The notes beneath the pieces are model-generated. The model did no database searches, had not been told where the DNA came from, and was given only the letters and a program-made list of their open reading frames with translations. A program made the translations under genes and the position numbers. A stretch of 64,000 nucleotides of DNA from Flavobacteriales bacterium (lineage in GTDB: Bacteria > Bacteroidota > Bacteroidia > UBA10329): assembly GCA_044356305.1 (NCBI GenBank), contig JBIKWM010000002.1, positions 132,053 to 196,052 of the forward strand, written 5' to 3'. Shown here one piece after another: positions 15,829 through 33,736 of this stretch. Positions within the stretch are counted from its first letter, which is position 1. Every line of letters begins with the position of its first letter.

Positions 15829-18261
15829 TTAACGGGAGATGGAGATCCGCTTAGATGCAATCAGACCATCGGCCCCAACAATATTCAGTAGGTAGGTGCC
15901 CGCAGCCAGATCTACATTCAGATTCTGGCGGATGTTGGCCCCGCCCTGAAGCTGATGCGCAATGAGTTTGCGACCACTAAGATCTGTAAGCTCTGCCTGA
16001 ACATTGCCCTGTGCACCTTTCACCTCTATCGTCAGCTCTCCAGCCGATGGGTTGGGGTAAACAGAAAGCGAAACAGCTTCAACTGAATTCAGGCCTGTCA
16101 CTATCACAGTTACCGATTGGCAGTCCTGGTCGCTTCCGCACGCGTTGGTGGCTGTGAGGCAAACGGTATAAGTGCCATTGGCGGTATAGGTATGCGATGG
16201 GCTGGTTGAAGTGCTCGACCCCCCATCACCGAAATCCCATGCATAGGAGGTGGCACCGCCAGTGCTCTGATTGGTGAAGTTAACTGTTGGGTCGGCATTC
16301 TGGAAAGTATAGCCAGCGGTCGGACTATTGCCTGTACCTATAGTAACCGAATTGCTGCGCTGACAGCCATTGCTATCTGTGACGGTCAATGTGTGGGTTC
16401 CAGATGACACAGAGATTGACTGTGTGGTCTGACCACCCGGTGACCACAGGTAACTGAATCCTGTTCCGGCAGGACCACCAATGGTCACGGGATTCCCGTT
16501 GCATGAAGTTGGGCTAGAAGGACTGATGGTGGCATCCGCTACGTACTGGTTGTCGGTGAGCTGAACAAAGAGGTCAGCAGCAGCACCTTGGTAGCCATCC
16601 ACTTGAACATAGTAGACCTGTCCAGCGGTGAGGCAGGTCACTGTCACTTCAGACGAGAACTCGGTTGTCACAAAATTCGGGTTGTCGTCATTGGCGCCCT
16701 CAATAACTGCACCACCACTGGTTATGGCGATGCAGCTTGCCGCACTGTAAACCGCTAGCTGTGTGTCATACGAACCATCGGTGCTGATGGTCACATTACC
16801 CGATGCTGGGGCGACAAATGTGAACCATACCGAATTGTCTACAATCAGGTCGCCACCACACCAGCCATCCTGCGACTCGCAGTTGTTTGTGGTGTTAGAG
16901 CCTTGTGGTGGTACAGGCTCGCCCGCCTCAGCCGTGGCCCCTGTGGTGACGAAAGGCCCATTGGCTCCGAAACTGAGCGGGATAGCCGAACAGACATCAT
17001 CATTGGTGGCCACGACAGCGCCATAAACGCATATATCAAAAGTGGTTGTGGCCGGAATTCCAATGTTGTAGTCATAGACACGCACAAAAATCGTAGCTCC
17101 CGGGGTTGCTCCGGTAAGTACTCCGGCCTCTGCTTCCCCAGACAATGTGTTGTCGAGACAACCCAACGAGGTTAACGCCCCACATGTTCCATCAAACACT
17201 TCCAGAACCGCATCGAACGAGGTTGAGCCGAGCACTTCAATGTTGGCAGCACCATTGGCAGGTACTACAAATGAGTACCATACATCGTCATCGGCAGTAC
17301 CTGCGCAGCCCGCCTGACTCTCAGTGGCTGTGGTCACATCGCCTGATACGGGCACACACGATGTGCCTACCGCAAGGCTCGTTGCACCGGCACACTCGTC
17401 ATTGCCTGTGGCACTCGGGTCGTATACGCATATATCGAAAGTTGTGGTCAGGGGTGCTCCAGTGTAGTAGTCGTACACGCGCAGATAGATGGTCTCACCT
17501 GGCACCCCTCCTGTAAAGGCAGCGGACTCCAACTCGCCTTCCAATGTACCGTCTACACATCCTACGGAAACCAGAGTGGCACAGTCGCCAGTGAAGGCTT
17601 CGACAACCGCATCAAAATTGGCAGAGCCTTGAACATCAATGGTCGCATTACCCGAAGGAGGAACAACAAAGCTGTACCACACATCGTCATCGGCCGTTCC
17701 AGAACAACCTGCCTGACTCTCTGTGGCATTGGTGACATCTCCACTGGTTGGGGTGCAATTGACCGTCACAGATAATGAAGTGGCAGTGGCACACTCATCA
17801 TTGGTGGCCATAGGAGTCTCGTATACGCACATCAGAAAATCTGTGGTGGCCGCCACATCAGCGTCAAAGTCATAAACTCTATAGAAGATTGTGGTACCAG
17901 CCACACCGGTCACTAATACTCCCTCAACTTCTCCATCAACTGTCGCATCAATACAACCAATAGATGTCAAGGCCCCACAAGACCCTTCAAAGAATTCGAG
18001 CACAGCGTCAAATGCCGTGTTACCAAGCACTTCCACTGTGGTAGAGCCGCTCGCTGGCATCACAAAACGGAACCAGATATCATCATTCGCTGTGCCTGCA
18101 CAACCCACTTGGGACTGGGTTGCCCCGGCCACATCGTAGGTGCCGGGCACACAGTCAGCGTTTACCGTCATCAAGATTGAACCTGAACAGTTGTCGTTCT
18201 GGGCCGAAGCGCCAAATGCCAAAAGGCTTAAGGAGGCAAGAAGCGTAAATCTATTTTTCAT
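15829..18261 (-). CDS. T9SS-secreted protein with four PPC (pre-peptidase C-terminal)-like domains, PKD domain and type-A sorting domain
   Basis: Start at MKNRFTLLASLSLLAFGASAQ (ATG 18259-18261). Four ~125-aa modules NDxC..A..L....C....GDV..ATESQAGC.GTADDDVWYSFVVP..G...I.V.G...FDAV.E.F.G.C..L.S.GC.D......E.......G...IY.RVYDY......TFDICVY. YAWDFGDGGSST PKD motif. CTD LSVYPNPSAGELTIEV...GTYLLNIV. Confidence 0.8.
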   Translation of the reverse strand: MKNRFTLLASLSLLAFGASAQNDNCSGSILMTVNADCVPGTYDVAGATQSQVGCAGTANDDIWFRFVMPASGSTTVEVLGNTAFDAVLEFFEGSCGALTSIGCIDATVDGEVEGVLVTGVAGTTIFYRVYDFDADVAATTDFLMCVYETPMATNDECATATSLSVTVNCTPTSGDVTNATESQAGCSGTADDDVWYSFVVPPSGNATIDVQGSANFDAVVEAFTGDCATLVSVGCVDGTLEGELESAAFTGGVPGETIYLRVYDYYTGAPLTTTFDICVYDPSATGNDECAGATSLAVGTSCVPVSGDVTTATESQAGCAGTADDDVWYSFVVPANGAANIEVLGSTSFDAVLEVFDGTCGALTSLGCLDNTLSGEAEAGVLTGATPGATIFVRVYDYNIGIPATTTFDICVYGAVVATNDDVCSAIPLSFGANGPFVTTGATAEAGEPVPPQGSNTTNNCESQDGWCGGDLIVDNSVWFTFVAPASGNVTISTDGSYDTQLAVYSAASCIAITSGGAVIEGANDDNPNFVTTEFSSEVTVTCLTAGQVYYVQVDGYQGAAADLFVQLTDNQYVADATISPSSPTSCNGNPVTIGGPAGTGFSYLWSPGGQTTQSISVSSGTHTLTVTDSNGCQRSNSVTIGTGNSPTAGYTFQNADPTVNFTNQSTGGATSYAWDFGDGGSSTSTSPSHTYTANGTYTVCLTATNACGSDQDCQSVTVIVTGLNSVEAVSLSVYPNPSAGELTIEVKGAQGNVQAELTDLSGRKLIAHQLQGGANIRQNLNVDLAAGTYLLNIVGADGLIASKRISISR

Positions 18262-18345
18262 GTATTGGTTTTTAATGGTAGTTGGGATGAAAAAGGGAAA
18301 ACCGCCCATCGGTCAGAGGGGCGGTTGATTTTGTTAAGAAACAGG

Positions 18346-18663
18346 TCATTTCTTCTCAGCCAAAACGCCCTTGATCTCACCGATGAGTTTATTCAACTCA
18401 GCTTTTGCGGCTTCGGTGGCGTTCTGATTCGCGGCCAACTTGGCCTCATATCGCTCAAGATGTTTCTGAAGGTCCTCCTTTGTCATGGCCCGGTAACGGG
18501 ACATGCGTGCATCAGATTCGTTCACCACTGTTTTGGTCACGGGACCTTGGCTCTCCACCTTGGTCGTGGTCTTTTGGGCAGGAGCTGCCGTGCTGTTGTT
18601 CTGTGCGCTTGCTGACAAGCTGAAAAGCATCAGCGCAACGGGTACGAAAAAAGTCTTCTTCAT
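18346..18663 (-). CDS. Small secreted coiled-coil protein (105 aa), LTXXQ-like (Spy/CpxP-like) candidate
   Basis: Signal peptide MKKTFFVPVALMLFSLSASAQ. S/T-rich linker. MTKEDLQKHLERYEAKLAANQ helix. Terminator-like hairpin accgccc...gggcggt at 18299-18325, downstream of this gene's stop codon. Confidence 0.5.
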   Translation of the reverse strand: MKKTFFVPVALMLFSLSASAQNNSTAAPAQKTTTKVESQGPVTKTVVNESDARMSRYRAMTKEDLQKHLERYEAKLAANQNATEAAKAELNKLIGEIKGVLAEKK

Positions 18664-18715: not shown

Positions 18716-18994
18716 TCACTCATCAGACGCACGGAGGCCCTTCAGGTGGCCCAGTCTGCGTTCGTAAGCAGCACTGTCAAAATTTGCGTCATTCCTATGT
18801 TCCTCAATGTGGGCCTCCAATTGTTTGATGGCCTTATTGATCTGTTCGCGTGTCATGCCCGAATGTCGCGGCTGAGGCGATTCCTCGGTCACCGCTACCT
18901 TGGCCTCGTTTGGGGCTGCAGAGCTGCCTTCCGATTGTGCAATGGCGCAAAACGAGATAAACACAAGGCTCGAAGAAAGAATCAGTTTCCGCAT
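18716..18994 (-). CDS. Small secreted coiled-coil protein (92 aa), paralog of 18346..18663
   Basis: Signal peptide MRKLILSSSLVFISFCAIAQ. Linker. MTREQINKAIKQLEAHIEEHRND. Confidence 0.5.
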   Translation of the reverse strand: MRKLILSSSLVFISFCAIAQSEGSSAAPNEAKVAVTEESPQPRHSGMTREQINKAIKQLEAHIEEHRNDANFDSAAYERRLGHLKGLRASDE

Positions 18995-20281: not shown

Positions 20282-21952
20282 TCAACGCAGAAGTGTCAGA
20301 AATCCCTGTCGGCTCTGGGTAGACCCATCCAGACCAGTCAAATTGAGCAGATAGTAGTATGTTCCCTGTTCCGCCTCGGCATTGCCATTTATTCGGCCGT
20401 CCCATCCCCAGTCACTCCCAGCGGTCAAAGTTCCTTCCATCTCATGCACCTTCAGCCCCCACCTGTTGTAGATCTTCATTGCGGCAGCAGTGTAACCATA
20501 GACGAAAGGTTCCCACAACCTGTTCATATCATCACCATTCGGGGTGAACACATTCGGCACTTCCAACATGGGCATGCCCTCAATATGAATGGATTGCATG
20601 GCCGTGTCGGCACATCCGAACTCATTGGTAACGATCAGGGTCACCACATAGGTGCCGCTGTCTGGAAAAACGTACTCGGCATCTTGACCATTAAGTATGG
20701 TGTCTCCCACCATCCACTGGTAGGTCGTGGCCTGGCCCTGGGCCGAAAACGAACCATTTAGGTAGGCGGCATCAATCAAAGCAGTGGCCGTGGGCACCGG
20801 ATTCACCGTGACTGACTGTGTCACGGTGTCTGTGCAGCCATCGGCCGTTATGAGCAATAGCGCTGCATCGTATTCACCAGCTTCGGCAAATAAATGGAAA
20901 TGGTCAATGGTGGAGGCCGTGGACCCATCACCATGATCCCAAGAATAGGTGGTCCCCTGTCCGAGAGCATTGCCCGTGAAGTCAAATGCTGTGGTATCGC
21001 CCGCACAGACCGGCCCGGTATTAAAGGCAGCGGTCGGCAGCGGGTCTATCACCACATCAAAACTGTCGGTGGCCGTGCACCCTGCCATGTCTGTTATGGT
21101 CTGAACTATGGTGTAGGTGCCAGGGGCGGCATAGGTCACATCCCCAGGGTCAATCTGGTCGGAGGTCTGGCCGTTGCCCAGATCCCAGTTCACTGCCGTC
21201 ACAGCTCCCAGAGCGCTATAGGACGCATCTGCAATGTTGATGGCCTCGCCAAGGCACACCTCATCATCGCTCAATGTGGCATCGGGCAGCATGGCCAGGC
21301 AAAACCTGTGCTCGTTGTTCAAACCGCCAGTACTGGCCGTGAATCCCCAATAGACCTCAGGATTGCCCGAAAAAAGGTCATTGACAATATCTGTGTTGAG
21401 TTCAACCCTCAGGTCGCTATCCATGTAGACGGAGAATGTGTTCGTGCCGGGCGCCCAGACCACGCGCATGAGATGTTCAGCCGCATCTTCAATATTGCCT
21501 CCGCTGGCAAGGGCTGTGACAGGCCCCATCAGGTTATTGGCCGTGCCATGGTCCACCACCCCATTGCTCATCAGTGCAATGTGGTCATAGACAGGGTCCC
21601 ATCCGTTCTGATAGGTGTCGACCTCCACGGCCAGAGACGGACTGATGCCCTCATAGCCCAGCCCACCACCTGTGCTGCCGATGCTGGTGCTTATAGGTTG
21701 CAACATGAATGCGATGCCATCGGCCCCGCCATCATTGGCCCCCAGGTACACATTGAATGTGAAATCAAAAGGGTCGGTCAGGTCTATCAGGTTCTCGTTC
21801 CAGACCGAGCCCCCCTGAGTGTTGATGGCCTGGGTGAGTCGGTAACAGTTGCATGAGAGCTGCACGGCATTCCCGTTCACAACGTATTGGGCCGTGCCTA
21901 TCAACGGAAGGGAAGAGAGGAGGACAAGCAGGAGTCTTTGCATATCATTCAC
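20282..21952 (-). CDS. T9SS type-B cargo: L-type (legume-like) lectin domain + PKD domains + gliding-motility-associated C-terminal domain
   Basis: Signal peptide. N-terminal lectin-like beta-sandwich (GGADGIAFMLQP..., VYWGFTASTGGLNNEHRFC). C-terminal VPNVFTPNGDDMNRLWEPF...GTYYYLL type-B CTD. Confidence 0.7.
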   Translation of the reverse strand: MNDMQRLLLVLLSSLPLIGTAQYVVNGNAVQLSCNCYRLTQAINTQGGSVWNENLIDLTDPFDFTFNVYLGANDGGADGIAFMLQPISTSIGSTGGGLGYEGISPSLAVEVDTYQNGWDPVYDHIALMSNGVVDHGTANNLMGPVTALASGGNIEDAAEHLMRVVWAPGTNTFSVYMDSDLRVELNTDIVNDLFSGNPEVYWGFTASTGGLNNEHRFCLAMLPDATLSDDEVCLGEAINIADASYSALGAVTAVNWDLGNGQTSDQIDPGDVTYAAPGTYTIVQTITDMAGCTATDSFDVVIDPLPTAAFNTGPVCAGDTTAFDFTGNALGQGTTYSWDHGDGSTASTIDHFHLFAEAGEYDAALLLITADGCTDTVTQSVTVNPVPTATALIDAAYLNGSFSAQGQATTYQWMVGDTILNGQDAEYVFPDSGTYVVTLIVTNEFGCADTAMQSIHIEGMPMLEVPNVFTPNGDDMNRLWEPFVYGYTAAAMKIYNRWGLKVHEMEGTLTAGSDWGWDGRINGNAEAEQGTYYYLLNLTGLDGSTQSRQGFLTLLR

Positions 21953-22051: not shown

Positions 22052-22708
22052 ATGTGGAGGCAGGTGAGCACACTGTTCGTCAAGGAGATGAGTCTTGAGT
22101 GGCGCAACAGATATGCCCTCAACGCCATTGCGCTCTATGTGGTGAGCACCGTCTTCGTTTGTTACCTGTCGTTCAAGCAAGTGGTTGAGGCGCCTGTTTG
22201 GAACGCCCTGTTTTGGGTGATCATGTTATTCGCATCGGTAAATGCCGTAGGCAAGAGCTTCATTACCGAGCGGTCTGGCCGCATGTTGTATTACCATCTG
22301 CTGTTCGGCCCGCAGGCGTTCATATTGGCCAAACTGCTGTACAATGCCCTGTTGCTGTTGGCGTTGGCCCTGGTCTGCTCGGGTGCATACATGCTTCTTA
22401 TAGGTGACCTCGTGCAGGACCACCTCATGTTCTATGTGGCGCTGGTGCTTGGCAGCCTGGGGTTCAGCGGCATTTTCACGCTCATGTCGGCCATAGCCGC
22501 CAAGACCGAGAACAACCTGAGCCTCATGGCCATCCTGAGTTTCCCGGTGCAGCTGCCATTCCTCATCACTCTTATCAAACTGTCAAAGAACGCAGTGGAC
22601 GGCCTCGACCGCTCCCTGAGCCTGGATCTGGTGGTGGTGCTGGTGCTGATCAACGTCATCGTTGTGGCATTGGCCTACCTGCTGTTCCCGTACCTTTGGC
22701 GCGACTGA
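22052..22708 (+). CDS. ccmB: Heme exporter permease CcmB (cytochrome c maturation system I)
   Basis: 218-aa six-TM protein directly upstream of ccmC/ccmD/ccmE homologs. Size and hydrophobicity profile fit CcmB. Confidence 0.6.
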   Translation: MWRQVSTLFVKEMSLEWRNRYALNAIALYVVSTVFVCYLSFKQVVEAPVWNALFWVIMLFASVNAVGKSFITERSGRMLYYHLLFGPQAFILAKLLYNALLLLALALVCSGAYMLLIGDLVQDHLMFYVALVLGSLGFSGIFTLMSAIAAKTENNLSLMAILSFPVQLPFLITLIKLSKNAVDGLDRSLSLDLVVVLVLINVIVVALAYLLFPYLWRD

Positions 22709-22738
22709 GCGGAATGGCCCGCCCCGCCTATCAGAGGG

Positions 22739-23434
22739 ATGTTCAAAACCGGAAACGATTCGCCTGCTCTATTCGGCCTTGCCTGGTGGAAATGGCTCGG
22801 AGCCGCCCTGGTACTCTATTCGGTGCTTGCGGGGCTGATCATCCCCGTGCCCGCACTGCCCATATTGCACGAGACTATCCGCAATCTCTTTTACCACGTC
22901 ACCCAGTGGTTCGCCATGATGTTGCTGCTCACCGTGGCCCTGTGGCACAGCATCATGCATCTGGCCAAGGGAGACAGACGGTCGGATATCATAGCGGCCG
23001 AGGCGGTTAACGTAGGGCTGTTCCAGGGCATCCTCGGCCTGCTTACAGGCATGCTGTGGGCGCGATACACCTGGGGCGCCTGGTGGGTCGGAGATGCCAA
23101 GCTGAACGGAGTGGCAGTGGCAATGCTCATTTACCTTGCATACAATGTGCTGCGCGGCAGCTTGGACGATGTGCAGAAACGGGGGCGTGTAGCCGCTGTG
23201 TTCAACATATTCGCCTATGTCATGTTCATGGTGATGGTAATGGTGATGCCACGGTTGGCTGATAGCCTGCACCCCGGCAACGGTGGCAACCCGGGCTTTG
23301 GCGGTTACGACCTCGATAATACCATGAAACTCGTGTTCTATCCGGCCGTGATAGGTTGGATTCTCATGGGCCTGTGGATAGTTGACATCAGGGTGCGGCT
23401 GGCATCCATCTTAGAGAAACGGAACAATGACTGA
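22739..23434 (+). CDS. ccmC: Heme exporter / cytochrome c assembly protein CcmC
   Basis: Trp-rich WWD-like loop TWGAWWVGDAKLN flanked by conserved His (ILHETIRN, LHPGNGG). Multi-TM. Confidence 0.75.
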   Translation: MFKTGNDSPALFGLAWWKWLGAALVLYSVLAGLIIPVPALPILHETIRNLFYHVTQWFAMMLLLTVALWHSIMHLAKGDRRSDIIAAEAVNVGLFQGILGLLTGMLWARYTWGAWWVGDAKLNGVAVAMLIYLAYNVLRGSLDDVQKRGRVAAVFNIFAYVMFMVMVMVMPRLADSLHPGNGGNPGFGGYDLDNTMKLVFYPAVIGWILMGLWIVDIRVRLASILEKRNND

Positions 23435-23648
23435 ACTGCTCAGACGTACGGCCCTGTGCCTCATCCTGCTCATGGGGCCACTTGCCCTGCACGCGCAAGA
23501 TGCCGTAGATATGGCCGACACCATGCGGGCCAACGGCAAGCTCTATGTGGTGGTGGGTGTTATGGCCATCATTTTCATCGGTCTGTTCATATACCTGCTC
23601 ATCATAGATAGGAAGCTGAGCCGCATGGAACGGGGCTCCAAGGACTGA
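23427..23648 (+). CDS. CcmD-family small membrane protein (Bacteroidota-type CcmD)
   Basis: 73 aa, single TM (VVVGVMAIIFIGLFIYLLII), overlapping the ccmC stop. Matches position and shape of the alternative CcmD family. Confidence 0.55.
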   Translation: MTELLRRTALCLILLMGPLALHAQDAVDMADTMRANGKLYVVVGVMAIIFIGLFIYLLIIDRKLSRMERGSKD

Positions 23649-23651
23649 ACC

Positions 23652-24059
23652 ATGAAGAAGACCCACATCATAGGCATAGTGGTGATAGCCGTGGCCATTG
23701 GGGCCATACTGGCCACTGTGAGCGATAGCAGCACATACGCCTCGTTTAATCAGGCAGTGGCCAATCCGGGCAGCGAGTACCACGTGGTGGGCCGATTGAA
23801 TAAGGCAAAGGAGATGGTGTACGACCCCCAGGTGAGCACCAACCTGTTTACCTTTTATATGACCGACAATGAGGGCACCGAGACCAAGGTGCATTTCAAA
23901 GGGTCAAAGCCTCAGGATTTTGAAAAGTCTGAGCAGGTTGTCCTTATCGGCAATTACAACGGTCAGGTGTTCGTGGCCGAAAAGATCCTTATGAAGTGCC
24001 CATCGAAGTACAATGATGGTCAACAGGGCGAGATGCAGGAGTTCAAGGCTCAAGGATAG
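23652..24059 (+). CDS. ccmE: Cytochrome c-type biogenesis heme chaperone CcmE, cysteine (CxxxY) variant
   Basis: N-terminal membrane anchor, OB-fold region (FYMTDNEGTETKVHFKGSKPQDF..VVLIGNY). C-terminal KCPSKY in place of the canonical HxxxY heme-binding motif. Confidence 0.7.
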   Translation: MKKTHIIGIVVIAVAIGAILATVSDSSTYASFNQAVANPGSEYHVVGRLNKAKEMVYDPQVSTNLFTFYMTDNEGTETKVHFKGSKPQDFEKSEQVVLIGNYNGQVFVAEKILMKCPSKYNDGQQGEMQEFKAQG

Positions 24060-24100: not shown

Positions 24101-26695
24101 TCAGTCTCCCTCTAAACCCAGATAGTTCTTGCGGAAAAAACGCATGTACTCTGGTACATCCTGGCGCTGATAGAACTTGGCAAAGTTGCCGACCGCTATA
24201 AGGAAACGGAACGCATCAGTCTCGTTGAGGCCGTTGAATACAGTGGAATCGGCCTTGATCAGCTCGTAATAATCGCGCGCTTTGGCCGGAGTACTGAATC
24301 CCTGCACAAATACAAGGTCCTTGTCACGGCCCATCTTCATGTCCTTCACCATCAAGGTCTCGTTGCTGTAGTTAACGGCATTGAAGTCCGAGAGGCGCGC
24401 CTTCATATCTGCCGGACGGAATCCCGGACGGTTGACCACCACCATGAAATACTGCACGGTATCGGCATTGTGGCGATAGAGGATGAGCGGTTCGGCAGGC
24501 AGCACCTCATCGGGCATCTTCTCGCCCGTCAGGTCATTCACATAGGCCAGCAGTTCCACAGCCATGGCCTTTTCCTCATCCTTCGGATATTTCTTGATGA
24601 ACTCATCCAGGGCGGCCTTGTACACATCGAGGCGTTGGGTGCGGCCTATGCACATGGCCTTCAGCAGCGCGAACTTGGGTATCAGCTTGTGCTTGTCCAC
24701 CTTTCCAACAACACTGTCTATAGTGGCCAGGGCGTCCTCAAACCGGTCTTCGCGGTAAGATGTCATTGCGCGCTCATACATCCCGCTCAGGCGGTTGCGC
24801 ATGGCCTCCATTTTCTTGAGGTGGTTGGGGTCGGTCAGTATCTTGGCATAATCGCTCTCAGGGAACTCTCGCACAATGCGCTGCTTGCAACGCTCGGCAT
24901 TGGCCATATCGTTCTTCTGTGTGTAGAGACGGTGAAGCTGATAGAGCGATTCGAGGGTCCAGATGCCTTTCGGATACTTCTGCAACAGGTCCTCATAGGT
25001 CTTTATGGACCGGTCAATGTCCGACAGTTGGTCCTTGTAGATGCCACCAAGGTCGTAATAGGCGTTCTGCACCAGGCGCAGCGAGCTGTCGCGTTGGGCC
25101 TCGGTGAGGGGCAGGCCCTTGCGGTAGAACTCTGGGTCGAGTAATACCGAATCCTTATTGGAGGCGGTGTCCGCATCGGCCGTGGTCGACATCTCAAGGC
25201 TGCGCTTGTTGCTCCTGCGCCAGTTGTCCTCCAGTTTCCTGTCGCCCCATTTGCGAAGGAAGTCGCTCACACCGAAACTGAGTGCGGTGGGGTTGTAGAA
25301 ATACCAACTGCCTGCTGCCGAACCGCTGGGGGTCTGAGCCGCGGGCTGGTTGCCGGCAGCCATGGCGGCCTGACGGTCGGCCTCGGCCTGACGGGCCGCT
25401 TCCTGCCTATCGAACTCCTTGCGGATCACATCAGCGATGAAACGGTCTATCTCATTCGGGCTCATGGCCGCTATGCGCAGCAGGCTGTCCTGCGTGCGTA
25501 TGATGTTCACATTCTTGATCAGCTCCGCGAGACTCTCCTTGCGGGTCTTCACATGGTCATATTTCTCGTGACGTTCGCTTATGACGGCCAATGAGCTGTC
25601 GTAATACAGGCCGCTCTCCTCGTACTCGGGAATATCGAACAGTATATCGGCTATGGTGAAGTAAGACTCGGCCTTCTGTGCCGTATTGCCGGTATTGGCG
25701 GCAATGGACTTCTTAAAATAGTCCATGGCCACAGGCTGGTCCTTTTCCTCGTAGGCAATCTTACCCAGGGCGAAATAGATGCGGTCAAGGAAATCAACGT
25801 TCTTCTCATCCTTGGCCATCTTCTCCAGCTCCTTCTTTATGCTGGCCAGCTCGCCCGATGTGCTGTTGGTCATCAGCGCCCTGTTGATGCGGGCGTTGAA
25901 CTCCATGTCATACGGTGTGCTCCTGCGCAGCACCTGGGTGTAGAAGTATGCCGCGCTGTCGCGGTTGTTCATCTCCTCATGCAGCTGTGCCTCAATGAAG
26001 GTGTAGCGCGTCTTCTTCCTGCGGGCCTTGGTATAGGCTATGGCCTTACGTATCTCCTCCAAAGCCTTGGGGTAGTCCTGTTTCTCAATCCAGTGGTCGG
26101 CCATCACGGCCCCATATTCTCCTTTCTTCTTCTTCGGGAATTTCTCCTCAGCCTCCAGCGCGGTGATTATCAGTTCGGCATCTTTGAACCGGGCCGATCG
26201 CGAATAGGTGCGCACCAGCCACAGGTAACCATCAATGCGGATGGGCTTGGTGGCATACTGTTTCACCACATAATTGAACACCTCGATGGCCGGCAGGTAG
26301 TCGCGCTTGTAATAGTTGGCCTGCCCTATCAGCATATACGAGTCATCTATCCAGTTGCAGTACTCCCGGCCTTTTATCAGCATAGAGTGGCGGTCTATCA
26401 CAAATGCGCCCTTTTGCAGGGCGCGGTCCATCTGTGGATAAACCGCCCTCGATTCCTCTTCGCCACCGGCAGGGAAAACGGGGATTATCCGCGTGAAATC
26501 GTCCTTATTGGCAACGCCTAGGGCAGCAACACCCTCTTTCAGGCTCTCGCGTCCGTTCCAATAGCCGTTGTAGTGCGAGGTCACATTATGATACGCGCGG
26601 TTCAAGATGCCCTTCTTCTTGGTAGAGCATCCGGCCAGCAGAAGTACCGAGGCACAGAGGGCTGCGAGAATGAGATATGGCCGCGTGGGTGTCAA
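24101..26695 (-). CDS. TPR-repeat lipoprotein, candidate SprE/PorW-type T9SS component
   Basis: 864 aa. Lipobox LLLAGCS. NRAYHNVTSHYNGYWNG N-terminal motif. Multiple TPR-like helical repeats. Size and lipoprotein character match SprE (~870 aa). Confidence 0.5.
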   Translation of the reverse strand: MTPTRPYLILAALCASVLLLAGCSTKKKGILNRAYHNVTSHYNGYWNGRESLKEGVAALGVANKDDFTRIIPVFPAGGEEESRAVYPQMDRALQKGAFVIDRHSMLIKGREYCNWIDDSYMLIGQANYYKRDYLPAIEVFNYVVKQYATKPIRIDGYLWLVRTYSRSARFKDAELIITALEAEEKFPKKKKGEYGAVMADHWIEKQDYPKALEEIRKAIAYTKARRKKTRYTFIEAQLHEEMNNRDSAAYFYTQVLRRSTPYDMEFNARINRALMTNSTSGELASIKKELEKMAKDEKNVDFLDRIYFALGKIAYEEKDQPVAMDYFKKSIAANTGNTAQKAESYFTIADILFDIPEYEESGLYYDSSLAVISERHEKYDHVKTRKESLAELIKNVNIIRTQDSLLRIAAMSPNEIDRFIADVIRKEFDRQEAARQAEADRQAAMAAGNQPAAQTPSGSAAGSWYFYNPTALSFGVSDFLRKWGDRKLEDNWRRSNKRSLEMSTTADADTASNKDSVLLDPEFYRKGLPLTEAQRDSSLRLVQNAYYDLGGIYKDQLSDIDRSIKTYEDLLQKYPKGIWTLESLYQLHRLYTQKNDMANAERCKQRIVREFPESDYAKILTDPNHLKKMEAMRNRLSGMYERAMTSYREDRFEDALATIDSVVGKVDKHKLIPKFALLKAMCIGRTQRLDVYKAALDEFIKKYPKDEEKAMAVELLAYVNDLTGEKMPDEVLPAEPLILYRHNADTVQYFMVVVNRPGFRPADMKARLSDFNAVNYSNETLMVKDMKMGRDKDLVFVQGFSTPAKARDYYELIKADSTVFNGLNETDAFRFLIAVGNFAKFYQRQDVPEYMRFFRKNYLGLEGD

Positions 26696-28782: not shown

Positions 28783-29319
28783 ATGAGAACATTCCTTACC
28801 CTTGCCGCCATGACCATAGCGCTTGCCTCCTCCGCCCAGACCAAGTCGTTCTACGATTTCAAGGTGCAGACTTTGGACGGGGCCGAGTTCGATTTCGCTT
28901 CGCTGAAAGGGAAAAAAGTCATGATAGTGAACACCGCCAGCAAGTGCGGCTACACCCCGCAGTACACCAACCTCGAGAAACTTTACAAGGAAAAGGGCGG
29001 AAAGGACTTCGTGATCATCGGTTTCCCGGCCAACAACTTTGCCGGTCAGGAACCGGGCAGCAACAAGGAGATCGCAGATTTCTGCCAGAAGAATTACGGG
29101 GTCACCTTCCCCATGATGGGCAAGGTGAGCGTGAAAGGCAGCGACCAGCACGCGCTTTACCAATGGCTGACACAGAAGGCCCAGAACGGGGTGGGCGATG
29201 CCAAAGTGGGTTGGAACTTCCACAAGTTCCTCATCGATGAGAACGGTAAGTGGGTCAAGTCGCTTTCGTCCAATGTGGACCCCATGAGTGCCGAGGTGCT
29301 CACCTGGCTCGGTAAATGA
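28783..29319 (+). CDS. Glutathione peroxidase (secreted/periplasmic)
   Basis: Signal peptide. VNTASKCGYTPQY, WNFHKFLIDENGKWV: GPx signature motifs. Confidence 0.85.
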   Translation: MRTFLTLAAMTIALASSAQTKSFYDFKVQTLDGAEFDFASLKGKKVMIVNTASKCGYTPQYTNLEKLYKEKGGKDFVIIGFPANNFAGQEPGSNKEIADFCQKNYGVTFPMMGKVSVKGSDQHALYQWLTQKAQNGVGDAKVGWNFHKFLIDENGKWVKSLSSNVDPMSAEVLTWLGK

Positions 29320-29332
29320 GCCTCCCCACAGC

Positions 29333-30049
29333 ATGAAGCTTGATATTCTGGCCTTTGGGGCACACCCCGATGATGTGGAGATATCGTGCAGTGGCACGTT
29401 GCTCAAGCACATCGCATTGGGCCAAACGGTGGGGGTTATAGACCTCACGCAGGGCGAGCTGGGCACCCGTGGCAACGGCACCCTGCGCATGCAGGAAGCT
29501 GACAGGTCGGCCGCCATCCTCGGGCTTTCAGTGAGGCAGAACCTCGGGCTGCGCGATGGTTTTTTCAGGGTCGATGAAGAGTCGCTCCACGCGGTCATCA
29601 GCGCAATACGGCACTTCAGGCCTGACGTAGTTCTGGCCAACGCCACCACCGACCGCCACCCCGACCACGGCCGTGCGAGCCAATTGGTGGCCGAGGCCTG
29701 CTTCCTCTCAGGGCTGCCAAAGGTGCTCACCGAGCGCGGGGGCGCACAACAGGAGGCCTGGCGCCCAAGGTTGGTGCTCCATTACATTCAGGACTACCAC
29801 CAGCGGCCCGATGTGGTGATGGACATCACACCCCATTTTGAGCGGAAACTTGAGGCTCTCAGGGCCTTTTCATCACAGTTCTTCGACCCCGCCAGCACCG
29901 AGCCCGCCACGCCCATCTCAGGCCAGGACTTCTTCGACTTTCTGCGTGGCCGCGCCAAGGAGATGGGCCGACCCATCGGGGCCGCCTATGCCGAGGGCTT
30001 CACTGCTTCGCGCCACCTCGGGGTCGAGCGGTTCGATCACCTGGTCTGA
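29333..30049 (+). CDS. LmbE/PIG-L family N-acetylglucosaminyl deacetylase, BshB1-like
   Basis: MKLDILAFGAHPDDVEISCSGT ... HPDHGRASQL (His/Asp zinc motifs of LmbE-like deacetylases). Confidence 0.65.
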   Translation: MKLDILAFGAHPDDVEISCSGTLLKHIALGQTVGVIDLTQGELGTRGNGTLRMQEADRSAAILGLSVRQNLGLRDGFFRVDEESLHAVISAIRHFRPDVVLANATTDRHPDHGRASQLVAEACFLSGLPKVLTERGGAQQEAWRPRLVLHYIQDYHQRPDVVMDITPHFERKLEALRAFSSQFFDPASTEPATPISGQDFFDFLRGRAKEMGRPIGAAYAEGFTASRHLGVERFDHLV

Positions 30050-30873
30050 ACCGCCCGGGCCGCCTCCGGCACCGCTGACAGCTCGTGCCTCAGTCCTTTG
30101 GCACCCGTCAGCTCGGCCCGTACACGGCCCACACGCAGCGGTGCCTCTATCAGCACCGGCACCCGGTTGTCATCGGCCGTGAACCACACGGTCATCTCGG
30201 CATCCTTGTCAAAAACACTCCCGGCTATCACCTCGGTCACCACGCGGTGGCACCGGTAGCGCGACCTTTTCAGCTTCACCTCCTCTAGCCCCACATAACG
30301 CACCATCAGGTCATACACCTTCTCATCCAGATACACCGACAGGCCCAGCCGCTCACCCTTTGCCAGGCTGTCCATGTCTATGCTGCGGGCGTTGTAGAAC
30401 ATGCTCACCGCATCGTACGTGCAGGCATGTATGGCTATGGTGTCCTTCACGCGCTCCACGCCATCGCGTCTGCGCCACGCCACTGCCCTCAGGGCCCTGT
30501 GGTCAAAGAAGTTGTTGTTGTACACCTTGAAACCCCCATCGTCCGTGTCGCGCAGATACTGCACAGGGCGCAGGTCCACTCTGCGCGCAAGGCTCTCAAA
30601 CCGGTCGCGCACCCTGTACACGATGTCGTAGCGCGGGGTGGTGCGCCCTATGGCCACAAAATGATACAGCGGCTGTCCGTTACGCGTCAGAGTGTCGGCC
30701 GTCAGGCTCACCGCCCCGGCATTGGCCCGTACTATTCCCCATCGGTAGCTTACCCGGTAGTACAGTTCCTCGCCAGCGCTGAACGCGGTCGGAAGCTGCG
30801 CACACACCTGCTGACCCAATGCCCTGACCGAGATGAGGGGCAACAGGGCCAGAAAGAAAAGAAGACGCATCAA
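30037..30873 (-). CDS. DUF3108 domain-containing protein
   Basis: Signal peptide MMRLLFFLALLPLISVRALGQ. YRVSYRWGIVRANAGAVSL... pattern typical of DUF3108. Converges on and overlaps the 3' end of the deacetylase gene. Confidence 0.5.
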   Translation of the reverse strand: MMRLLFFLALLPLISVRALGQQVCAQLPTAFSAGEELYYRVSYRWGIVRANAGAVSLTADTLTRNGQPLYHFVAIGRTTPRYDIVYRVRDRFESLARRVDLRPVQYLRDTDDGGFKVYNNNFFDHRALRAVAWRRRDGVERVKDTIAIHACTYDAVSMFYNARSIDMDSLAKGERLGLSVYLDEKVYDLMVRYVGLEEVKLKRSRYRCHRVVTEVIAGSVFDKDAEMTVWFTADDNRVPVLIEAPLRVGRVRAELTGAKGLRHELSAVPEAARAVQTR

Positions 30874-31763
30874 TGCAGCACAGGCCGCAATGCACGGCCA
30901 TCGGCAAATCGCAGCGAATACACACCCTGCCGAAGTCCACCAAGGTCAATGACATCTGCGCCCCCTTTCAGTTCAAACTGCGCCACGGTGCGCCCATGCA
31001 TGTCTGCAAGAGTGGCCATCCCGGCCGGGGCACCGTGCACATGCAGCACACCGTCAGTCGGGTTGGGGCCCATGCTCAGCGCCTGTGCGGCACGTGCATC
31101 ATCAATGCCCACCTGCAGCACGCAGGTCGACCCCTGCGTGGGCACATAGCTCACATCGCCCAGACCGAAACACACCAGATCATATCCGCACTCCAATATG
31201 GGCGGCACAGGCTCTATCAGACCCCCCGTGAAACCGATCCCCTCATACAGATATCCCGCATAGGACCCCTCTAGCGTAAACCGCCTGCGCATCGTCCCGC
31301 CCACCGAGAAACTGTCCACGGCCGTCACCAGAATATCAGTCCAATTGTTATTGTGGGTCAGTGGCAGATGGTCGCCCACCTGCAGGTCAAAGTCGTAGAG
31401 CAGCGTGTCTACTGTCCCGTTCCAGGTATACAGCCTACGCCCCTCCTGTCTGAGTAGGAAAGACGGCAACGGGTCGCTGAAGGTGAACGAACCGCTGCAC
31501 GATGGCGGCACCGGAGGCCCACCGAAATACTCGTAGGTCCCTATCCCCGAGCGGTACATCTTGTGGTACAGGTGGCCTCCTACAGTGCTGTCGCCTACAG
31601 GCATGTAGTTGTAATCAGAATTCAGGATGCACGGGTATGGCACTGCGCACATCGCACTTATGGTCCACACCGGACTGCCCTCAAAGTAGTCGGGTATCTG
31701 AGCCATGGCATGCGCAGACATGAGCAGCCAGGCCGAAAAGGTGACAAGCTTTTTCATCAGCAT
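30870..31763 (-). CDS. Hypothetical T9SS type-A cargo protein
   Basis: Signal peptide MLMKKLVTFSAWLLMSAHAMAQ. C-terminal MGPNPTDGVLHVHG...GVYSLRFADG sorting domain. Confidence 0.6.
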   Translation of the reverse strand: MLMKKLVTFSAWLLMSAHAMAQIPDYFEGSPVWTISAMCAVPYPCILNSDYNYMPVGDSTVGGHLYHKMYRSGIGTYEYFGGPPVPPSCSGSFTFSDPLPSFLLRQEGRRLYTWNGTVDTLLYDFDLQVGDHLPLTHNNNWTDILVTAVDSFSVGGTMRRRFTLEGSYAGYLYEGIGFTGGLIEPVPPILECGYDLVCFGLGDVSYVPTQGSTCVLQVGIDDARAAQALSMGPNPTDGVLHVHGAPAGMATLADMHGRTVAQFELKGGADVIDLGGLRQGVYSLRFADGRALRPVLH

Positions 31764-31772
31764 CTCAGATCA

Positions 31773-31940
31773 TGAATTGAACACAATGTTAAGGATGAAT
31801 GCCAGCAGCCCACCATAACCTATTACAGCCATGATGAACGACCGTGCAAAACCATGACCCCTGCTGCGCTGCACCAGGGCAGTGAGCAGCGCCAGCATCA
31901 CTACACCCACCGCCATCAGCCACCATTGCCATGCACCCAT
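31773..31940 (-). CDS. Possible small (55 aa) two-helix membrane protein
   Basis: Manual translation MGAWQWWLMAVGVVMLALLTALVQRSRGHGFARSFIMAVIGYGGLLAFILNIVFNS. Below the ORF-track length cutoff. Confidence 0.2.
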
Positions 31941-32206
31941 CCCCGACTGCGCAAATCGTACCCGACAAAACTATGAGGTATATGTTAAGCAGATCTCCCA
32001 CCGCCATTCCTCTAAGCGAACAGCCCATGGAATATCCGCACTGATTCTGAAATGACAGAAGCCGCTGTATCGATTGCCTTTATCCATGACCACCGCACTT
32101 GCGCGGTCTGCATCTCTTATGAAGTCACAGAGACTTCGAGCGTCATGTTCCGCACGGGTTATCCCGTGGAACGCATGAGCGAACGGGGGTTTATTAACCC
32201 ATTGCC

Positions 32207-33388
32207 CTAATTTTTTAGTAACCGGCTCCTTACCACCGAACCATCTCTCAATTTGACCGAAACAACATATACCCCCGAGTACAGGTGCTCAACATGGATT
32301 GTACTCTTCAAACCACTCACCTTCTGAACAGCCACCACTTTGCCCAATTGGTCTTGGATGGTGACATGTTCTATTTCAGAATTTGAGCCTGTAACATTGA
32401 ACTGTACTTGATCATTTGCTGGGTTTGGATAAAGTTCAAGGGTGTATTCCTCCGATTCTCGAATGCCGATGCTATTATCCTCACGCAATTCAACGGCATC
32501 GATGAAGTAAGAACTTGCTTCCCAACTATTGATAAGGGGTGGGTTGGAACTGACACGTTGAAAACTCAGTTCATCCTCTGAGCGGAAAACACCAATGGTC
32601 ATGAACTTCTCGCCACCATGAGCAATAAATTGCCCACTGATCTCAACCCAATTCACCCTGTCCTCCAACAAAAAACTATCCGGGCTCTCCACCTGTGGTT
32701 TGGCCACAATAAAACTATCAATAGGAAGAAAGCGGGTGGTATTCTCAGTAAACAGGGCCCCAATGTTGGCTACAGCGAAATTCACACTATCAGCAAGATT
32801 CACACGGCATTTGAACAGATAACCGTGGCCACTATTTAGGCTTTCAGGCAGTTCCATCCACAGGTATTCTCGGGCATTTGCCCAAAATGGGGTGTAGCAG
32901 GCAAAGTGGCCATAGGCTACCCCATCATATGCATCTTGATAACCATATTGATTGTTTGGCACCCCAAACTTTGGCCAATCCTCGTTGCTGCATGCATTGA
33001 AGTAATCAACTGACCCATAGGCTGAGCCCCAATACTCTGACACAGTTATCCAGCCTGGGCTAGAAGGGCATGCCGGGTCACCGTTTACATCCAATTCTAT
33101 CTCTTCAAAACTATAGTTCGGAATAATATTAGGCCCTAACTGGGCAATTGCGTTTTGTACATTAAACAATGTGACCCAAAGAAAGAAATATGTAGTGGTG
33201 GTTCTCCCCCTTTCGCTCGCGTCTCGCGAGTGAGAATTTCTCTGCCTCTGGCATTCTGAGAAAATTCTTTTCCATTGACGCGCCCGAGCGAGGCTGTGCG
33301 GTGTGCTGGCGCGTAGGGTCTTTCCCTCGCGCCTTTTATTCGGTGGTCTCCAGCCCACCCAGTGGCCAGTGTTCTCATGCCTCATCAT
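32207..33388 (-). CDS. Low-GC T9SS type-A cargo protein; 5' end runs into repeat unit, start codon uncertain (possible pseudogene)
   Basis: C-terminal ELYPNPANDQVQFNV...GVYVVSVKL sorting domain. Signal-peptide-like ...YFFLWVTLFNVQNAIAQ has no in-frame ATG/GTG. The ORF-track N-terminus MMRHENTGH... is repeat-derived. GC ~44% vs ~60% flanks. Confidence 0.55.
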   Translation of the reverse strand: MMRHENTGHWVGWRPPNKRREGKTLRASTPHSLARARQWKRIFSECQRQRNSHSRDASERGRTTTTYFFLWVTLFNVQNAIAQLGPNIIPNYSFEEIELDVNGDPACPSSPGWITVSEYWGSAYGSVDYFNACSNEDWPKFGVPNNQYGYQDAYDGVAYGHFACYTPFWANAREYLWMELPESLNSGHGYLFKCRVNLADSVNFAVANIGALFTENTTRFLPIDSFIVAKPQVESPDSFLLEDRVNWVEISGQFIAHGGEKFMTIGVFRSEDELSFQRVSSNPPLINSWEASSYFIDAVELREDNSIGIRESEEYTLELYPNPANDQVQFNVTGSNSEIEHVTIQDQLGKVVAVQKVSGLKSTIHVEHLYSGVYVVSVKLRDGSVVRSRLLKN

Positions 33389-33470
33389 CAGTTCCGTTCA
33401 CCAAAGGTCAACAATTATCTGAGTCACACACCATTCCGGCTCATCCAGATCCTTCCATTACGACCCCCTC
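33205..33470. repeat. Tandem repeat unit A copy 1 (~265 bp, hairpin-rich)
   Basis: ccccct-ttcgctcgcgtctcgcgagtgagaatttctctgcctctggcattctga...cattacgaccccctcc. ~90% identical to copies 2 and 3. Confidence 0.85.
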
Positions 33471-33736
33471 CCCCCCCTTCGCTCGCGTCTCGCGAGTGAG
33501 AATTTCTCTGCCTCTGGCATTCTGAAAAAATTCTTTTCCATTGGCGCGCCCGAGCGAGGCTGTGCGGTGTGCTGGCGCGTAGGGTCCTTCCCTCGCGCCA
33601 TTTATTCGGTGGGCTCCAGCCCACCCGGTGGCCAGTGTTCTCATGCCTGCTCATCATTCCGATTCACCAAAGGTCAACAATTATCTGATTCACACACCAT
33701 TCCAGCTCATCCAGATCCTTCCATTACGACCCCCTC
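33471..33736. repeat. Tandem repeat unit A copy 2
   Basis: Directly abuts copy 1 head-to-tail. Same internal palindromes (ctcgcgag, gagaatttctc, ggtgggctccagcccacc). Confidence 0.85.

What the first reader, a model, noticed from the sequence alone, without database searches (positions are those of the whole stretch)
22052..24059. Partial cytochrome c maturation cluster with a cysteine-type (CxxxY) CcmE and a Bacteroidota-type CcmD
The cluster has ccmB, ccmC, a small ccmD-like gene and ccmE in a row. There is no ccmA upstream (a divergent lectin gene lies there instead), and no ccmF or ccmH follows (the convergent TPR lipoprotein gene lies there). CcmE carries KCPSKY where canonical CcmE has the heme-binding HxxxY. 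The CxxxY variant was described for archaea and a few bacteria, in systems lacking CcmH. Its presence here suggests the variant system I in this lineage, with the remaining genes elsewhere.
Basis: partly seen in the sequence, partly recalled or inferred. Interest (0 to 1): 0.5.

Follow-up and report, generated by a model that had tools for sequence, protein, structure and literature searches.

The report
Cysteine-type cytochrome c maturation genes, Bacteroidota
Four adjacent genes encode the haem-export and haem-chaperone half of the known "System I*" cytochrome c maturation pathway, with a cysteine replacing the usual haem-binding histidine in CcmE; it is real and under selection, but it is the standard version found across Bacteroidota, so it is ordinary.

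Summary
Window 22052-24059 (+) holds a tight ccmB-ccmC-ccmD(alt)-ccmE operon. It lies between a divergent T9SS lectin gene and the convergent T9SS lipoprotein gene porW/sprE. CcmE Cys116 and Tyr120 (KCPSKY) align with E. coli His130 and Tyr134 and with the Cys of Desulfovibrio CcmE. CPSKY is the published consensus of System I* CcmE. It is invariant in all 120 best homologues and in all 74 CcmE ORFs from Bacteroidota genomes, so it is a phylum-wide trait, not a local oddity.

The 64 kb window contains no ccmA, ccmF, ccmH, CcsBA or c-type cytochrome gene. Relatives at 66-76% CcmE identity have ccmF (about 805 aa) directly after ccmE. This clade has split it off. No ccmA was adjacent in any of the 80 genome loci scanned for ATPase motifs.

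The four genes are under strong purifying selection (dN/dS 0.02-0.12). A stand-alone ccmF (P0173/P0273) matches the window in composition and in its divergence pattern, so it probably belongs to this clade. This is not proven.

Verdict: a new member of a known kind, of low to moderate interest.

The parts
22052..22708 (+). ccmB: ABC-2-type permease of the haem-release ABC complex (218 aa)
   Evidence: PF03379 CcmB, E 4e-8, 33.3 bits against a cutoff of 24.9. There was no NCBIfam CcmB hit and no PDB sequence hit. dN/dS is 0.033 against sister lineage L093.
22739..23434 (+). ccmC: haem-handling WWD protein that loads haem onto CcmE (231 aa). His53, W112-D119 (WGAWWVGD) and His178 are the key residues.
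   Evidence: PF01578 43.1 bits and TIGR01191 E 7e-18. Alignment to E. coli CcmC 7f02_C gives FYHV on YLHV (H60), WGAWWVGD on WGTWWVWD, and SLHPG on TLHQG (H184). dN/dS is 0.038.
23427..23648 (+). ccmD (CcmD_alt family): small membrane protein (73 aa) with a signal-like N-terminal hydrophobic stretch, one TM helix and a basic C-terminus
   Evidence: PF20077 CcmD_alt, E 2e-23, 82.7 bits. TIGR04391 scores 22.5 bits, just under its cutoff of 24. The gene overlaps the end of ccmC by 8 nt. dN/dS is 0.12.
23652..24059 (+). ccmE: membrane-anchored OB-fold haem chaperone, Cys type (135 aa)
   Evidence: PF03100, E 2e-13. The AlphaFold model has mean pLDDT 78 (above 89 for residues 31-110) and an OB fold. 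It matches CcmE structures 1lm0 and 1j6q at rmsd 2.2-2.4 A, and 8ce8_E. There are 6578 homologues, named CcmE by NCBI and JGI in Flavobacteriales/Bacteroidota MAGs. dN/dS is 0.024.
23994..24011 (+). Codons for KCPSKY (residues 115-120). Cys116 is the predicted covalent haem-binding residue and Tyr120 the predicted haem-iron ligand.
   Evidence: C116 aligns with E. coli H130 and Y120 with Y134 (1sr3, 8ce8), and the motif aligns with KCP of D. vulgaris 2kct. CPSKY is invariant in 120/120 best homologues and in 74/74 genome-locus ORFs. It is the published majority motif of System I* CcmE (PMC3601427).

Best explanation
This is the haem-delivery half of a Bacteroidota System I* (cysteine-type CcmE) cytochrome c maturation pathway, and it is functional.

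Inferred mechanism, by homology with E. coli, Desulfovibrio and Methanosarcina:
- CcmC, helped by CcmD, presents haem at its periplasmic WWD site between His53 and His178.
- The membrane-anchored OB-fold chaperone CcmE takes the haem, probably through a thioether from Cys116 with Tyr120 as the iron ligand.
- CcmB, together with an unlinked ABC ATPase (CcmA, not identified), releases holo-CcmE.
- Holo-CcmE then hands haem to a CcmF-type synthetase, which attaches it to CXXCH apocytochromes without an adjacent CcmH.

In this clade ccmF has been separated from the operon by rearrangement. It is most likely the stand-alone gene represented by P0173/P0273 on another contig.

What is shown: gene identities, motif equivalence, conservation, selection, and the gene arrangement in relatives.

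What is inferred: haem chemistry, the partnership with CcmA, and the assignment of the unlinked ccmF to this genome.
For: CPSKY is invariant and equals the System I* consensus. Covalent haem binding by the Cys has been demonstrated experimentally in Desulfovibrio and in M. acetivorans (PMC3601427; PMC9084895).

The CcmC ligands and WWD region are conserved. The CcmE model has an OB fold.

Contiguous ccmB-C-D-E-F clusters occur in L004, L005, L007, L096, L098 and in about 44 of 80 GTDB loci.

dN/dS is 0.02-0.12 at dS 0.6-1.0 between the window and L093. Both lack an adjacent ccmF and have different downstream neighbours.

The stand-alone ccmF contig L102 has GC 0.564 and tetranucleotide r = 0.962 with the window. 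That is within the window's own chunk range of 0.91-0.97. Its 90% cluster contains an NCBI+JGI+Logan member on a 196-kb contig. The CcmF identity pattern is 63-65% to L005/L007, 73% between L005 and L007, and 96% between the two cluster members. This mirrors the CcmB/C/E pattern of 68-76%, 77-81% and 94-96%.
Against: The whole genome could not be read. No ccmA, ccmF, thiol-reduction gene (CcmG, CcdA) or c-type cytochrome is in the 64 kb.

The link between L102/P0273 and this genome rests only on composition and parallel divergence. L102 comes from samples (SRR13076594/5) other than those where the window's operon was seen.

No ccmA is adjacent to ccmB in any of the 80 loci scanned for ATPase motifs, so the ATPase partner is unknown for the whole phylum.

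The third Trp of the CcmC WWD motif is replaced (G118 here, mostly N in relatives). The functional effect of this is unknown.

NCBIfam equivalog scores for CcmC and CcmE are far below cutoff, so these are divergent members.
Confidence: 0.75

Rival explanations
1. The clade has really lost ccmF. It keeps CcmBCDE, with some ATPase, as a stand-alone periplasmic haem export and chaperone module that serves another acceptor, not CcmF-dependent cytochrome c synthesis.
For: ccmF is absent from the window and from every contig of the window clade: L001-L003, L009, L010, L093-L095. The four genes are nevertheless under strong purifying selection. Many Bacteroidales and Lentimicrobiaceae loci also have ccmBCDE with no ccmF within 10 kb; there it is followed by UbiD and aminotransferase genes. 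Two database-wide CcmF searches returned no hit that is provably from this genome.
Against: A compositionally matching stand-alone ccmF with the expected divergence pattern exists. Stand-alone ccmF genes also occur in a related contig, L092, and in an unrelated low-GC Bacteroidota contig, L097. ccmE-ccmF pairs without ccmBCD occur as well. The ccm genes are therefore simply dispersed in this phylum. No alternative acceptor is suggested by the neighbourhood.
Confidence: 0.08
2. The cluster is a decaying remnant left after a rearrangement removed ccmF, and it no longer functions.
For: The operon ends abruptly 41 nt before the convergent porW gene. The GSHPx/PIG-L pair that flanks ccmB in relatives has moved 4.7 kb downstream, which shows a local rearrangement.
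Against: All four ORFs are intact. dN/dS is 0.02-0.12 over dS 0.6-1.0 between two lineages that both lack an adjacent ccmF. All catalytic and ligand residues are retained.
Confidence: 0.02
3. The Cys-type CcmE-like protein does not bind haem covalently through Cys116. The cysteine may be structural or redox-active, or the protein may have another ligand or role.
For: No experiment exists for any Bacteroidota CcmE. Sequence identity to characterised CcmEs is low (PDB E-values 0.006-0.4). Foldseek E-values are only about 0.01.
Against: The motif position is exactly equivalent, and Tyr+4 is conserved too. CPSKY is identical to the majority motif of experimentally validated System I*. The motif is strictly invariant across all sequences examined. 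The gene keeps a constant position between ccmD and ccmF.
Confidence: 0.05

Closest known systems
System I* of Desulfovibrio (CcmE with CPxxY; structure 2KCT; Allen et al. 2006 and Goddard et al. 2010 as summarised in PMC3601427)
   Same: CcmE has Cys in place of the haem-binding His, in the same CPSKY-type motif, with Tyr at +4. A CcmD is present. No CcmH is adjacent. 2kct is the best PDB sequence match.
   Different: The phylum is different: the 2011 survey lists delta-proteobacteria, Chloroflexi and Firmicutes, not Bacteroidetes. CcmD is of the CcmD_alt family. ccmA is not linked to ccmB. ccmF is about 805 aa, and in this clade it is unlinked. The third Trp of the CcmC WWD motif is replaced.
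Streamlined archaeal Ccm system (CcmABCEF of Methanosarcina acetivorans, PMC9084895)
   Same: It has a CXXXY CcmE whose Cys is required for haem attachment. It has no CcmH/I. The genes are dispersed over several loci.
   Different: Archaea lack CcmD altogether, whereas a CcmD_alt is present here and is conserved. The archaeal CcmF is split into two proteins.
Canonical System I CcmABCDE of E. coli (structures 7F02, 8CE8, 1SR3)
   Same: The gene order B-C-D-E is the same. The CcmC His ligands and WWD region, and the membrane-anchored OB-fold CcmE with a (H/C)xxxY tail, are shared.
   Different: His130 is replaced by Cys116. There is no ccmA before ccmB, and no ccmF, ccmG or ccmH after ccmE. NCBIfam equivalog scores are far below cutoff.
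System II (CcsBA) of Bacteroides
   Same: It occurs in the same phylum and belongs to the same WWD superfamily (PF01578). There is a weak TIGR03144 hit.
   Different: System II has no CcmE chaperone and no CcmB or CcmD. The protein here is a 231-aa CcmC type, not a CcsBA fusion.

Membership tests
System I* (variant Ccm system with Cys-type CcmE) | CcmE has Cys at the position of the haem-binding His of the HxxxY motif, with Tyr kept at +4 | tested here: met
   C116 aligns with H130 and Y120 with Y134 in the profile alignment to 1sr3 and 8ce8, and the motif aligns with KCP of 2kct. CPSKY is the published majority motif.
System I* (variant Ccm system with Cys-type CcmE) | CcmE is an N-terminally membrane-anchored OB-fold protein | tested here: met
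   Residues 6-23 form a hydrophobic N-terminus. The AlphaFold OB barrel has pLDDT above 89 for residues 31-110. Foldseek hits are 1lm0 and 1j6q (rmsd 2.2-2.4 A) and 8ce8_E, although E is only about 0.01.
System I* (variant Ccm system with Cys-type CcmE) | CcmC has a WWD domain and two periplasmic His haem ligands | tested here: met
   H53, WGAWWVGD (112-119) and H178 align with E. coli H60, WGTWWVWD and H184. The third Trp is replaced by Gly.
System I* (variant Ccm system with Cys-type CcmE) | CcmA-CcmB ABC release complex | tested here: inconclusive
   CcmB is present (PF03379 above cutoff). The 64 kb has no ABC ATPase, and none is adjacent to ccmB in any of the 80 related loci scanned.
System I* (variant Ccm system with Cys-type CcmE) | A CcmF haem lyase is present in the genome | tested here: inconclusive
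   It is absent from the window and adjacent in relatives. The candidate unlinked copy P0173/P0273 is supported by composition (r = 0.962) and by its divergence pattern, but it is not tied to this assembly.
System I* (variant Ccm system with Cys-type CcmE) | Absence of CcmH. This feature is often cited, but per PMC3601427 it is not strictly defining. | tested here: inconclusive
   The window has no LRCxxC-type ORF in a real gene, and none is adjacent to the ccm genes in the 80 loci. Genome-wide absence cannot be tested with these tools.
System I* (variant Ccm system with Cys-type CcmE) | Covalent haem-Cys adduct on CcmE and production of holocytochrome c | not testable with these tools
   This needs haem staining, mass spectrometry and genetics. 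It has been shown only for Desulfovibrio and M. acetivorans.
Canonical System I (E. coli type) | Haem-binding His in the CcmE HxxxY motif | tested here: not met
   Cys116 occupies that position.
Canonical System I (E. coli type) | Contiguous ccmABCDEFGH operon | tested here: not met
   Only ccmB, C, D and E are present, flanked by a T9SS lectin gene and porW.
CcmD_alt (PF20077 / TIGR04391) | Small membrane protein encoded between ccmC and ccmE that matches the family profile | tested here: met
   PF20077 scores 82.7 bits against a cutoff of 23.5. TIGR04391 scores 22.5 against 24, just below. The position between ccmC and ccmE is conserved in relatives.

The most novel reading that the evidence does not exclude
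The window's clade, and perhaps the many Bacteroidales and Lentimicrobiaceae genomes whose ccmBCDE is not followed by ccmF, may maintain CcmBCDE under selection without any CcmF. The Cys-type CcmE would then act as a periplasmic haem chaperone for an acceptor other than the classical haem lyase.

A weaker but likelier novelty is that Bacteroidota form a very large and so far undescribed reservoir of System I* with its own hallmarks. These are CcmD_alt, a CcmC WWD motif lacking the third Trp, a CcmF of about 805 aa, and a ccmA that is never linked.
Probability: 0.08. Interest if true: 0.7.

Novelty: new member of a known kind. Interest (0 to 1): 0.25.

Why it matters
System I* raises an unsolved chemical question: how is a haem that is thioether-bound to a CcmE cysteine released again for transfer to apocytochrome (PMC3601427)? 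Experiments so far come from Desulfovibrio operons expressed in E. coli and from one methanogen.

The exact CPSKY form of the system is universal among the homologues seen here. There were 6578 hits, and the motif was invariant in every sequence examined. It also occurs in cultured aerobes such as Pontibacter. This adds a third major lineage and potential new model organisms.

The finding also flags that the CcmA partner and the thiol-reduction components of this phylum's pathway are unidentified.

For this particular window, the practical value is correct annotation. The four genes are one functional half of a dispersed pathway, not a broken operon.

Tried and rejected
1. The genome-contig scan with CcmE did not recover the window's own genome (best hit 69%). 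The rest of the genome could therefore not be searched for ccmA, ccmF or ccmH.
It gave no sample co-occurrence test.
3. Several CcmF candidates were looked up and rejected as this clade's copy.
   - P0164 has L007-type synteny and a low-quality assembly.
   - P0168 and P0239 are in ordinary ccmBCDEF clusters with low GC.
   - P0206 is stand-alone but has GC 0.335.
   - P0156-P0163 all belong to the L005 clade.
4. An early argument that no CcmF exists at the expected identity, and so it was lost, was dropped. CcmE at 71% identity can pair with CcmF at only 60% (P0054/P0191). The 90% clustering also hides cluster members.
5. The ABC ATPase upstream of the Pontibacter ccm clusters is PstB, with PstA and PhoU. 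Others are ABC-F or FtsE. None is CcmA.
6. The 627-aa gene after ccmE in Bacteroidales loci is UbiD, not a short CcmF.
7. Sigma-70 promoter and intrinsic-terminator scans, and folding of the ccmE-porW spacer, were at chance level: z = -1.25, and counts equalled those of shuffles. Bacteroidota promoters are not covered by that scan.
8. No CXXC motif occurs in the long CcmF C-terminal region that could stand in for CcmH.
9. Literature searches for CPSKY, for CcmE with Bacteroidetes or Flavobacteria, and for TIGR04391 or PF20077 found no paper describing this system in Bacteroidota.
Full report
**1. What is there**

The region 22052-24059 carries four closely spaced ORFs on the + strand.
- 22052-22708 (218 aa) is CcmB (PF03379, 33.3 bits, cutoff 24.9).
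- 22739-23434 (231 aa) belongs to the cytochrome c assembly/WWD family (PF01578, 43.1 bits). Its best NCBIfam hit is CcmC TIGR01191 (E 7e-18, below the curated cutoff).
- 23427-23648 (73 aa) is CcmD_alt (PF20077, 82.7 bits, cutoff 23.5).
- 23652-24059 (135 aa) is CcmE (PF03100, 51 bits, cutoff 24.6).

ccmD overlaps the end of ccmC by 8 nt, and ccmE starts 3 nt after the ccmD stop.

Upstream and divergent is an L-type lectin/PKD/CHU_C protein, which is T9SS cargo. Downstream and convergent, 41 nt away, is an 864-aa TPR lipoprotein. NCBIfam identifies it as the T9SS component PorW/SprE (691 bits).

The window is clearly Bacteroidota. It has PorW, many Por_Secre_tail/CHU_C cargo genes and DUF4270, and the homologues are named Flavobacteriales or Bacteroidota bacterium.

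**2. The cysteine**

CcmE residues 115-120 are KCPSKY (nt 23994-24011). A single-sequence search of the PDB hits only the Desulfovibrio vulgaris CcmE 2kct. It aligns query KCPSKY with KCPLEH, which is the construct's native KCP followed by its tag.

A profile of 15 family members also finds E. coli CcmE (1sr3, 8ce8). It aligns "ILMKCPSKYNDG" with "VLAKHDENYTPP". This places C116 on H130 and Y120 on Y134.

An AlphaFold model has mean pLDDT 78, above 89 across residues 31-110. It gives an OB barrel preceded by a hydrophobic N-terminal anchor. Its best specific Foldseek matches are the CcmE structures 1lm0 and 1j6q (rmsd 2.2-2.4 A over 77 columns) and 8ce8_E. The E-values are weak (about 0.01), as is usual for small OB folds.

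**3. How particular is it?**

It is not particular.
- The CcmE search returned 6578 homologues. The best 120 are 62-100% identical and were annotated as CcmE by NCBI or JGI in Flavobacteriales/Bacteroidota MAGs. All 120 carry CPSKY.
- In 80 loci from GTDB species representatives (Flavobacteriales, Bacteroidales, Lentimicrobiaceae, Sphingobacteriales, Saprospiraceae, Chitinophaga, Chryseobacterium, Pontibacter), all 74 recovered CcmE ORFs carry CPSKY.
- The 2011 System I review states that the majority of variant (System I*) CcmEs have exactly CPSKY. It lists delta-proteobacteria, Chloroflexi and Firmicutes as carriers. It notes that about a third of those bacteria do have CcmH (PMC3601427).
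- Covalent haem binding by the Cys is experimentally established for Desulfovibrio and for Methanosarcina acetivorans C120.

I found no paper that mentions this system in Bacteroidota. The curated CcmD_alt models and the database names show that annotators have recognised it.

**4. The other components**

The window's CcmC aligns over residues 18-228 with E. coli CcmC (7f02_C). His53 corresponds to H60, and His178 to H184. WGAWWVGD corresponds to WGTWWVWD, so the third Trp of the WWD signature is Gly here. It is mostly Asn in relatives that match the pattern.

CcmB is divergent. It scores above the Pfam cutoff but has no NCBIfam or PDB sequence hit.

The 64 kb contains none of the following:
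- an ABC-ATPase signature, or a CXXCH motif in a genuine gene;
- a CcmF (tblastn with a relative's CcmF);
- a CcmH- or CcmG-like motif in a genuine gene;
- any relevant Pfam family among 43 further ORFs scanned.

**5. Is the cluster "partial"?**

Relatives at 66-76% CcmE identity (L004, L005, L007/L008) have ccmB-C-D-E followed directly by a ccmF of about 802-808 aa (PF01578 + PF16327). Its best NCBIfam hits are the CcmF/NrfE haem-lyase models, below cutoff. No ccmA lies before ccmB and no ccmH lies after ccmF.

Among the 80 GTDB loci there are three arrangements:
- About 44 have ccmF right after ccmE.
- Many Bacteroidales and Lentimicrobiaceae loci have ccmBCDE followed by UbiD and an aminotransferase, with no ccmF within 10 kb.
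- Several have ccmE-ccmF without ccmBCD.

No locus has a CcmA-like ATPase next to ccmB. The ATPases found nearby are PstB, ABC-F and FtsE types. Unlinked ccmA is therefore the rule in this phylum, and dispersal of ccmF is common.

Every contig of the window's own clade ends the block at ccmE.
- Six contigs encode an identical CcmE: L001-L003, L009, L010 and one JGI+NCBI record held without DNA. Where anything lies beyond ccmE, it is a convergent gene; in L001 this is the same 864-aa gene as in the window.
- In the sister lineage at 95-96% identity (L093-L095), a Peptidase_M24 gene follows instead.
- The GSHPx/PIG-L pair sits divergently upstream of ccmB in L007, L091, L098 and L099; PIG-L alone does so in 13 GTDB loci. 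In the window the pair lies 4.7 kb downstream, which indicates a local rearrangement.

**6. Is the module alive?**

Between the window and L093, Nei-Gojobori dN/dS values are:

| Gene | dN/dS |
|---|---|
| ccmB | 0.033 |
| ccmC | 0.038 |
| ccmD | 0.12 |
| ccmE | 0.024 |

dS is 0.6-1.0. Both lineages lack an adjacent ccmF and have different downstream neighbours. The four-gene block is therefore maintained by strong purifying selection, which excludes a decaying remnant.

**7. Where is ccmF?**

Two database-wide searches were run, with the L007 CcmF and with P0195. Together with contig look-ups they sorted the closest CcmFs into four groups:
- the L007 clade (79-100% identical to the L007 CcmF);
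- the L005 clade (70-73%);
- ordinary clustered copies;
- a small group of stand-alone ccmF genes, P0195/L092 and P0173/L102.

L102 is an 18-kb contig. It has GC 0.564 (window 0.556) and a tetranucleotide correlation of 0.962 with the window. For comparison, the values are 0.91-0.97 for the window's own 11-kb chunks, 0.94 for L093, 0.88 for L005 and 0.61 for L007.

The 90% cluster of P0173 includes P0273. It is 806 aa, is found in NCBI+JGI+Logan on a 195,898-bp contig, and is 96% identical to P0173.

The divergence patterns of the two gene sets run in parallel:

| Comparison | CcmB/C/E, window clade | CcmF, P0173 group |
|---|---|---|
| To L005 and L007 | 68-76% | 63-65% |
| L005 versus L007 | 77-81% | 73% |
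| Within the clade | 94-96% (window vs L093) | 96% (P0173 vs P0273) |

I therefore consider it likely (about 75%) that this clade carries an unlinked ccmF of the P0173/P0273 type. This is inference from composition and parallel divergence.

**8. Mechanism**

By homology, CcmC with CcmD presents haem between His53 and His178 at the WWD site. CcmE captures it through Cys116, presumably as a thioether, with Tyr120 as the ligand. CcmB with an unidentified ATPase releases holo-CcmE. A CcmF encoded elsewhere then transfers the haem to CXXCH apocytochromes.

Gene identities, motif equivalence, conservation and selection are shown. The chemistry and the partner assignments are inferred.

**9. Comparison and novelty**

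The module works like, and by sequence criteria belongs to, System I*. It fails the canonical System I criterion of a haem-binding His.

It differs from the Desulfovibrio prototype in five respects:
- phylum;
- CcmD family;
- unlinked ccmA;
- a long CcmF;
- an altered WWD motif.

It differs from the archaeal system in possessing a CcmD.

This is a new member of a known kind, or more precisely a large and little-noticed clade of members. Interest is low to moderate at 0.25. A specialist would not be surprised by the chemistry. They might find it useful that cultured aerobic Bacteroidota such as Pontibacter carry a complete CPSKY-type cluster.

The most novel reading not excluded is a CcmBCDE module that functions without CcmF. 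I put this at about 8%.

Noticed in passing
window 24101-26695 (-): The "TPR lipoprotein" downstream of ccmE is the type IX secretion component PorW/SprE (NF052312, 691 bits). It is unrelated to cytochrome maturation and is not a CcmI/CcmH-like TPR protein.
   Followed up: yes
window 4137-6215, 6962-15205, 15829-18309, 20282-21952, 30870-31763, 32207-33388, 61105-62436: There is a dense set of T9SS cargo genes with Por_Secre_tail or CHU_C C-terminal domains. They include a 2747-aa PKD/Ig-like giant, an 826-aa protein with three GBD_T9SS_assoc repeats, an M43 peptidase and an L-type lectin.
   Followed up: partly
window 34839-38015 (+) and 38041-40404 (+): Two adjacent large proteins both end in a SpoIIE/PP2C phosphatase domain. 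One has Reg_prop beta-propeller and Y_Y_Y sensor domains, the other has TPR arrays. This looks like a paired signalling module.
   Followed up: no
window 30001-36000: GC skew is strongly negative (-0.15 to -0.19), and GC dips to 0.49 at 32-34 kb against about 0.55-0.6 elsewhere. About 1 kb (33389-34434) has no long ORF. No Rfam or tRNA hit lies there.
   Followed up: partly
window 28783-30049 (+); L007 6964-8310; L091; L098; L099: The GSHPx/PIG-L gene pair lies divergently just upstream of ccmB in several relatives, and PIG-L alone does so in 13 GTDB loci. In the window the pair lies 4.7 kb downstream of ccmE in the same orientation as the operon. This marks the rearrangement that also separated ccmF.
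   Followed up: partly
CcmC, window 23072-23095 (residues 112-119); family 1 in the GTDB loci: In Bacteroidota CcmC the WWD signature reads WG.WWV[N/G/S/A/D]D. The third Trp of E. coli WGTWWVWD is never Trp among the 34 ORFs that matched the pattern; the other 36 did not match my regular expression.
   Followed up: partly
L025, L027, L028, L030, L031, L033, L047, L051 and other Bacteroidales/Lentimicrobiaceae loci: In these loci ccmBCDE is followed by a UbiD-family decarboxylase (627 aa) and a class III aminotransferase instead of ccmF. Whether these genomes have ccmF elsewhere is unknown.
   Followed up: partly
CcmE residues 121-135 (window 24012-24056): The tail after CPSKY is conserved across the family as G-E-M/F-x-E-F/V-x-A, with A133 invariant. 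The model predicts a short beta-strand at residues 128-132, whereas E. coli CcmE is described as having a flexible tail.
   Followed up: no
window 18346-18663 (-) and 18716-18994 (-): Two small tandem ORFs (105 and 92 aa) have signal-peptide-like N-termini and similar helical, charged C-terminal halves. Neither has a Pfam hit. They are also called as genes in L001.
   Followed up: no
window 40462-40535 (-): A single tRNA-Cys (GCA) is the only RNA gene detected in the 64 kb.
   Followed up: yes
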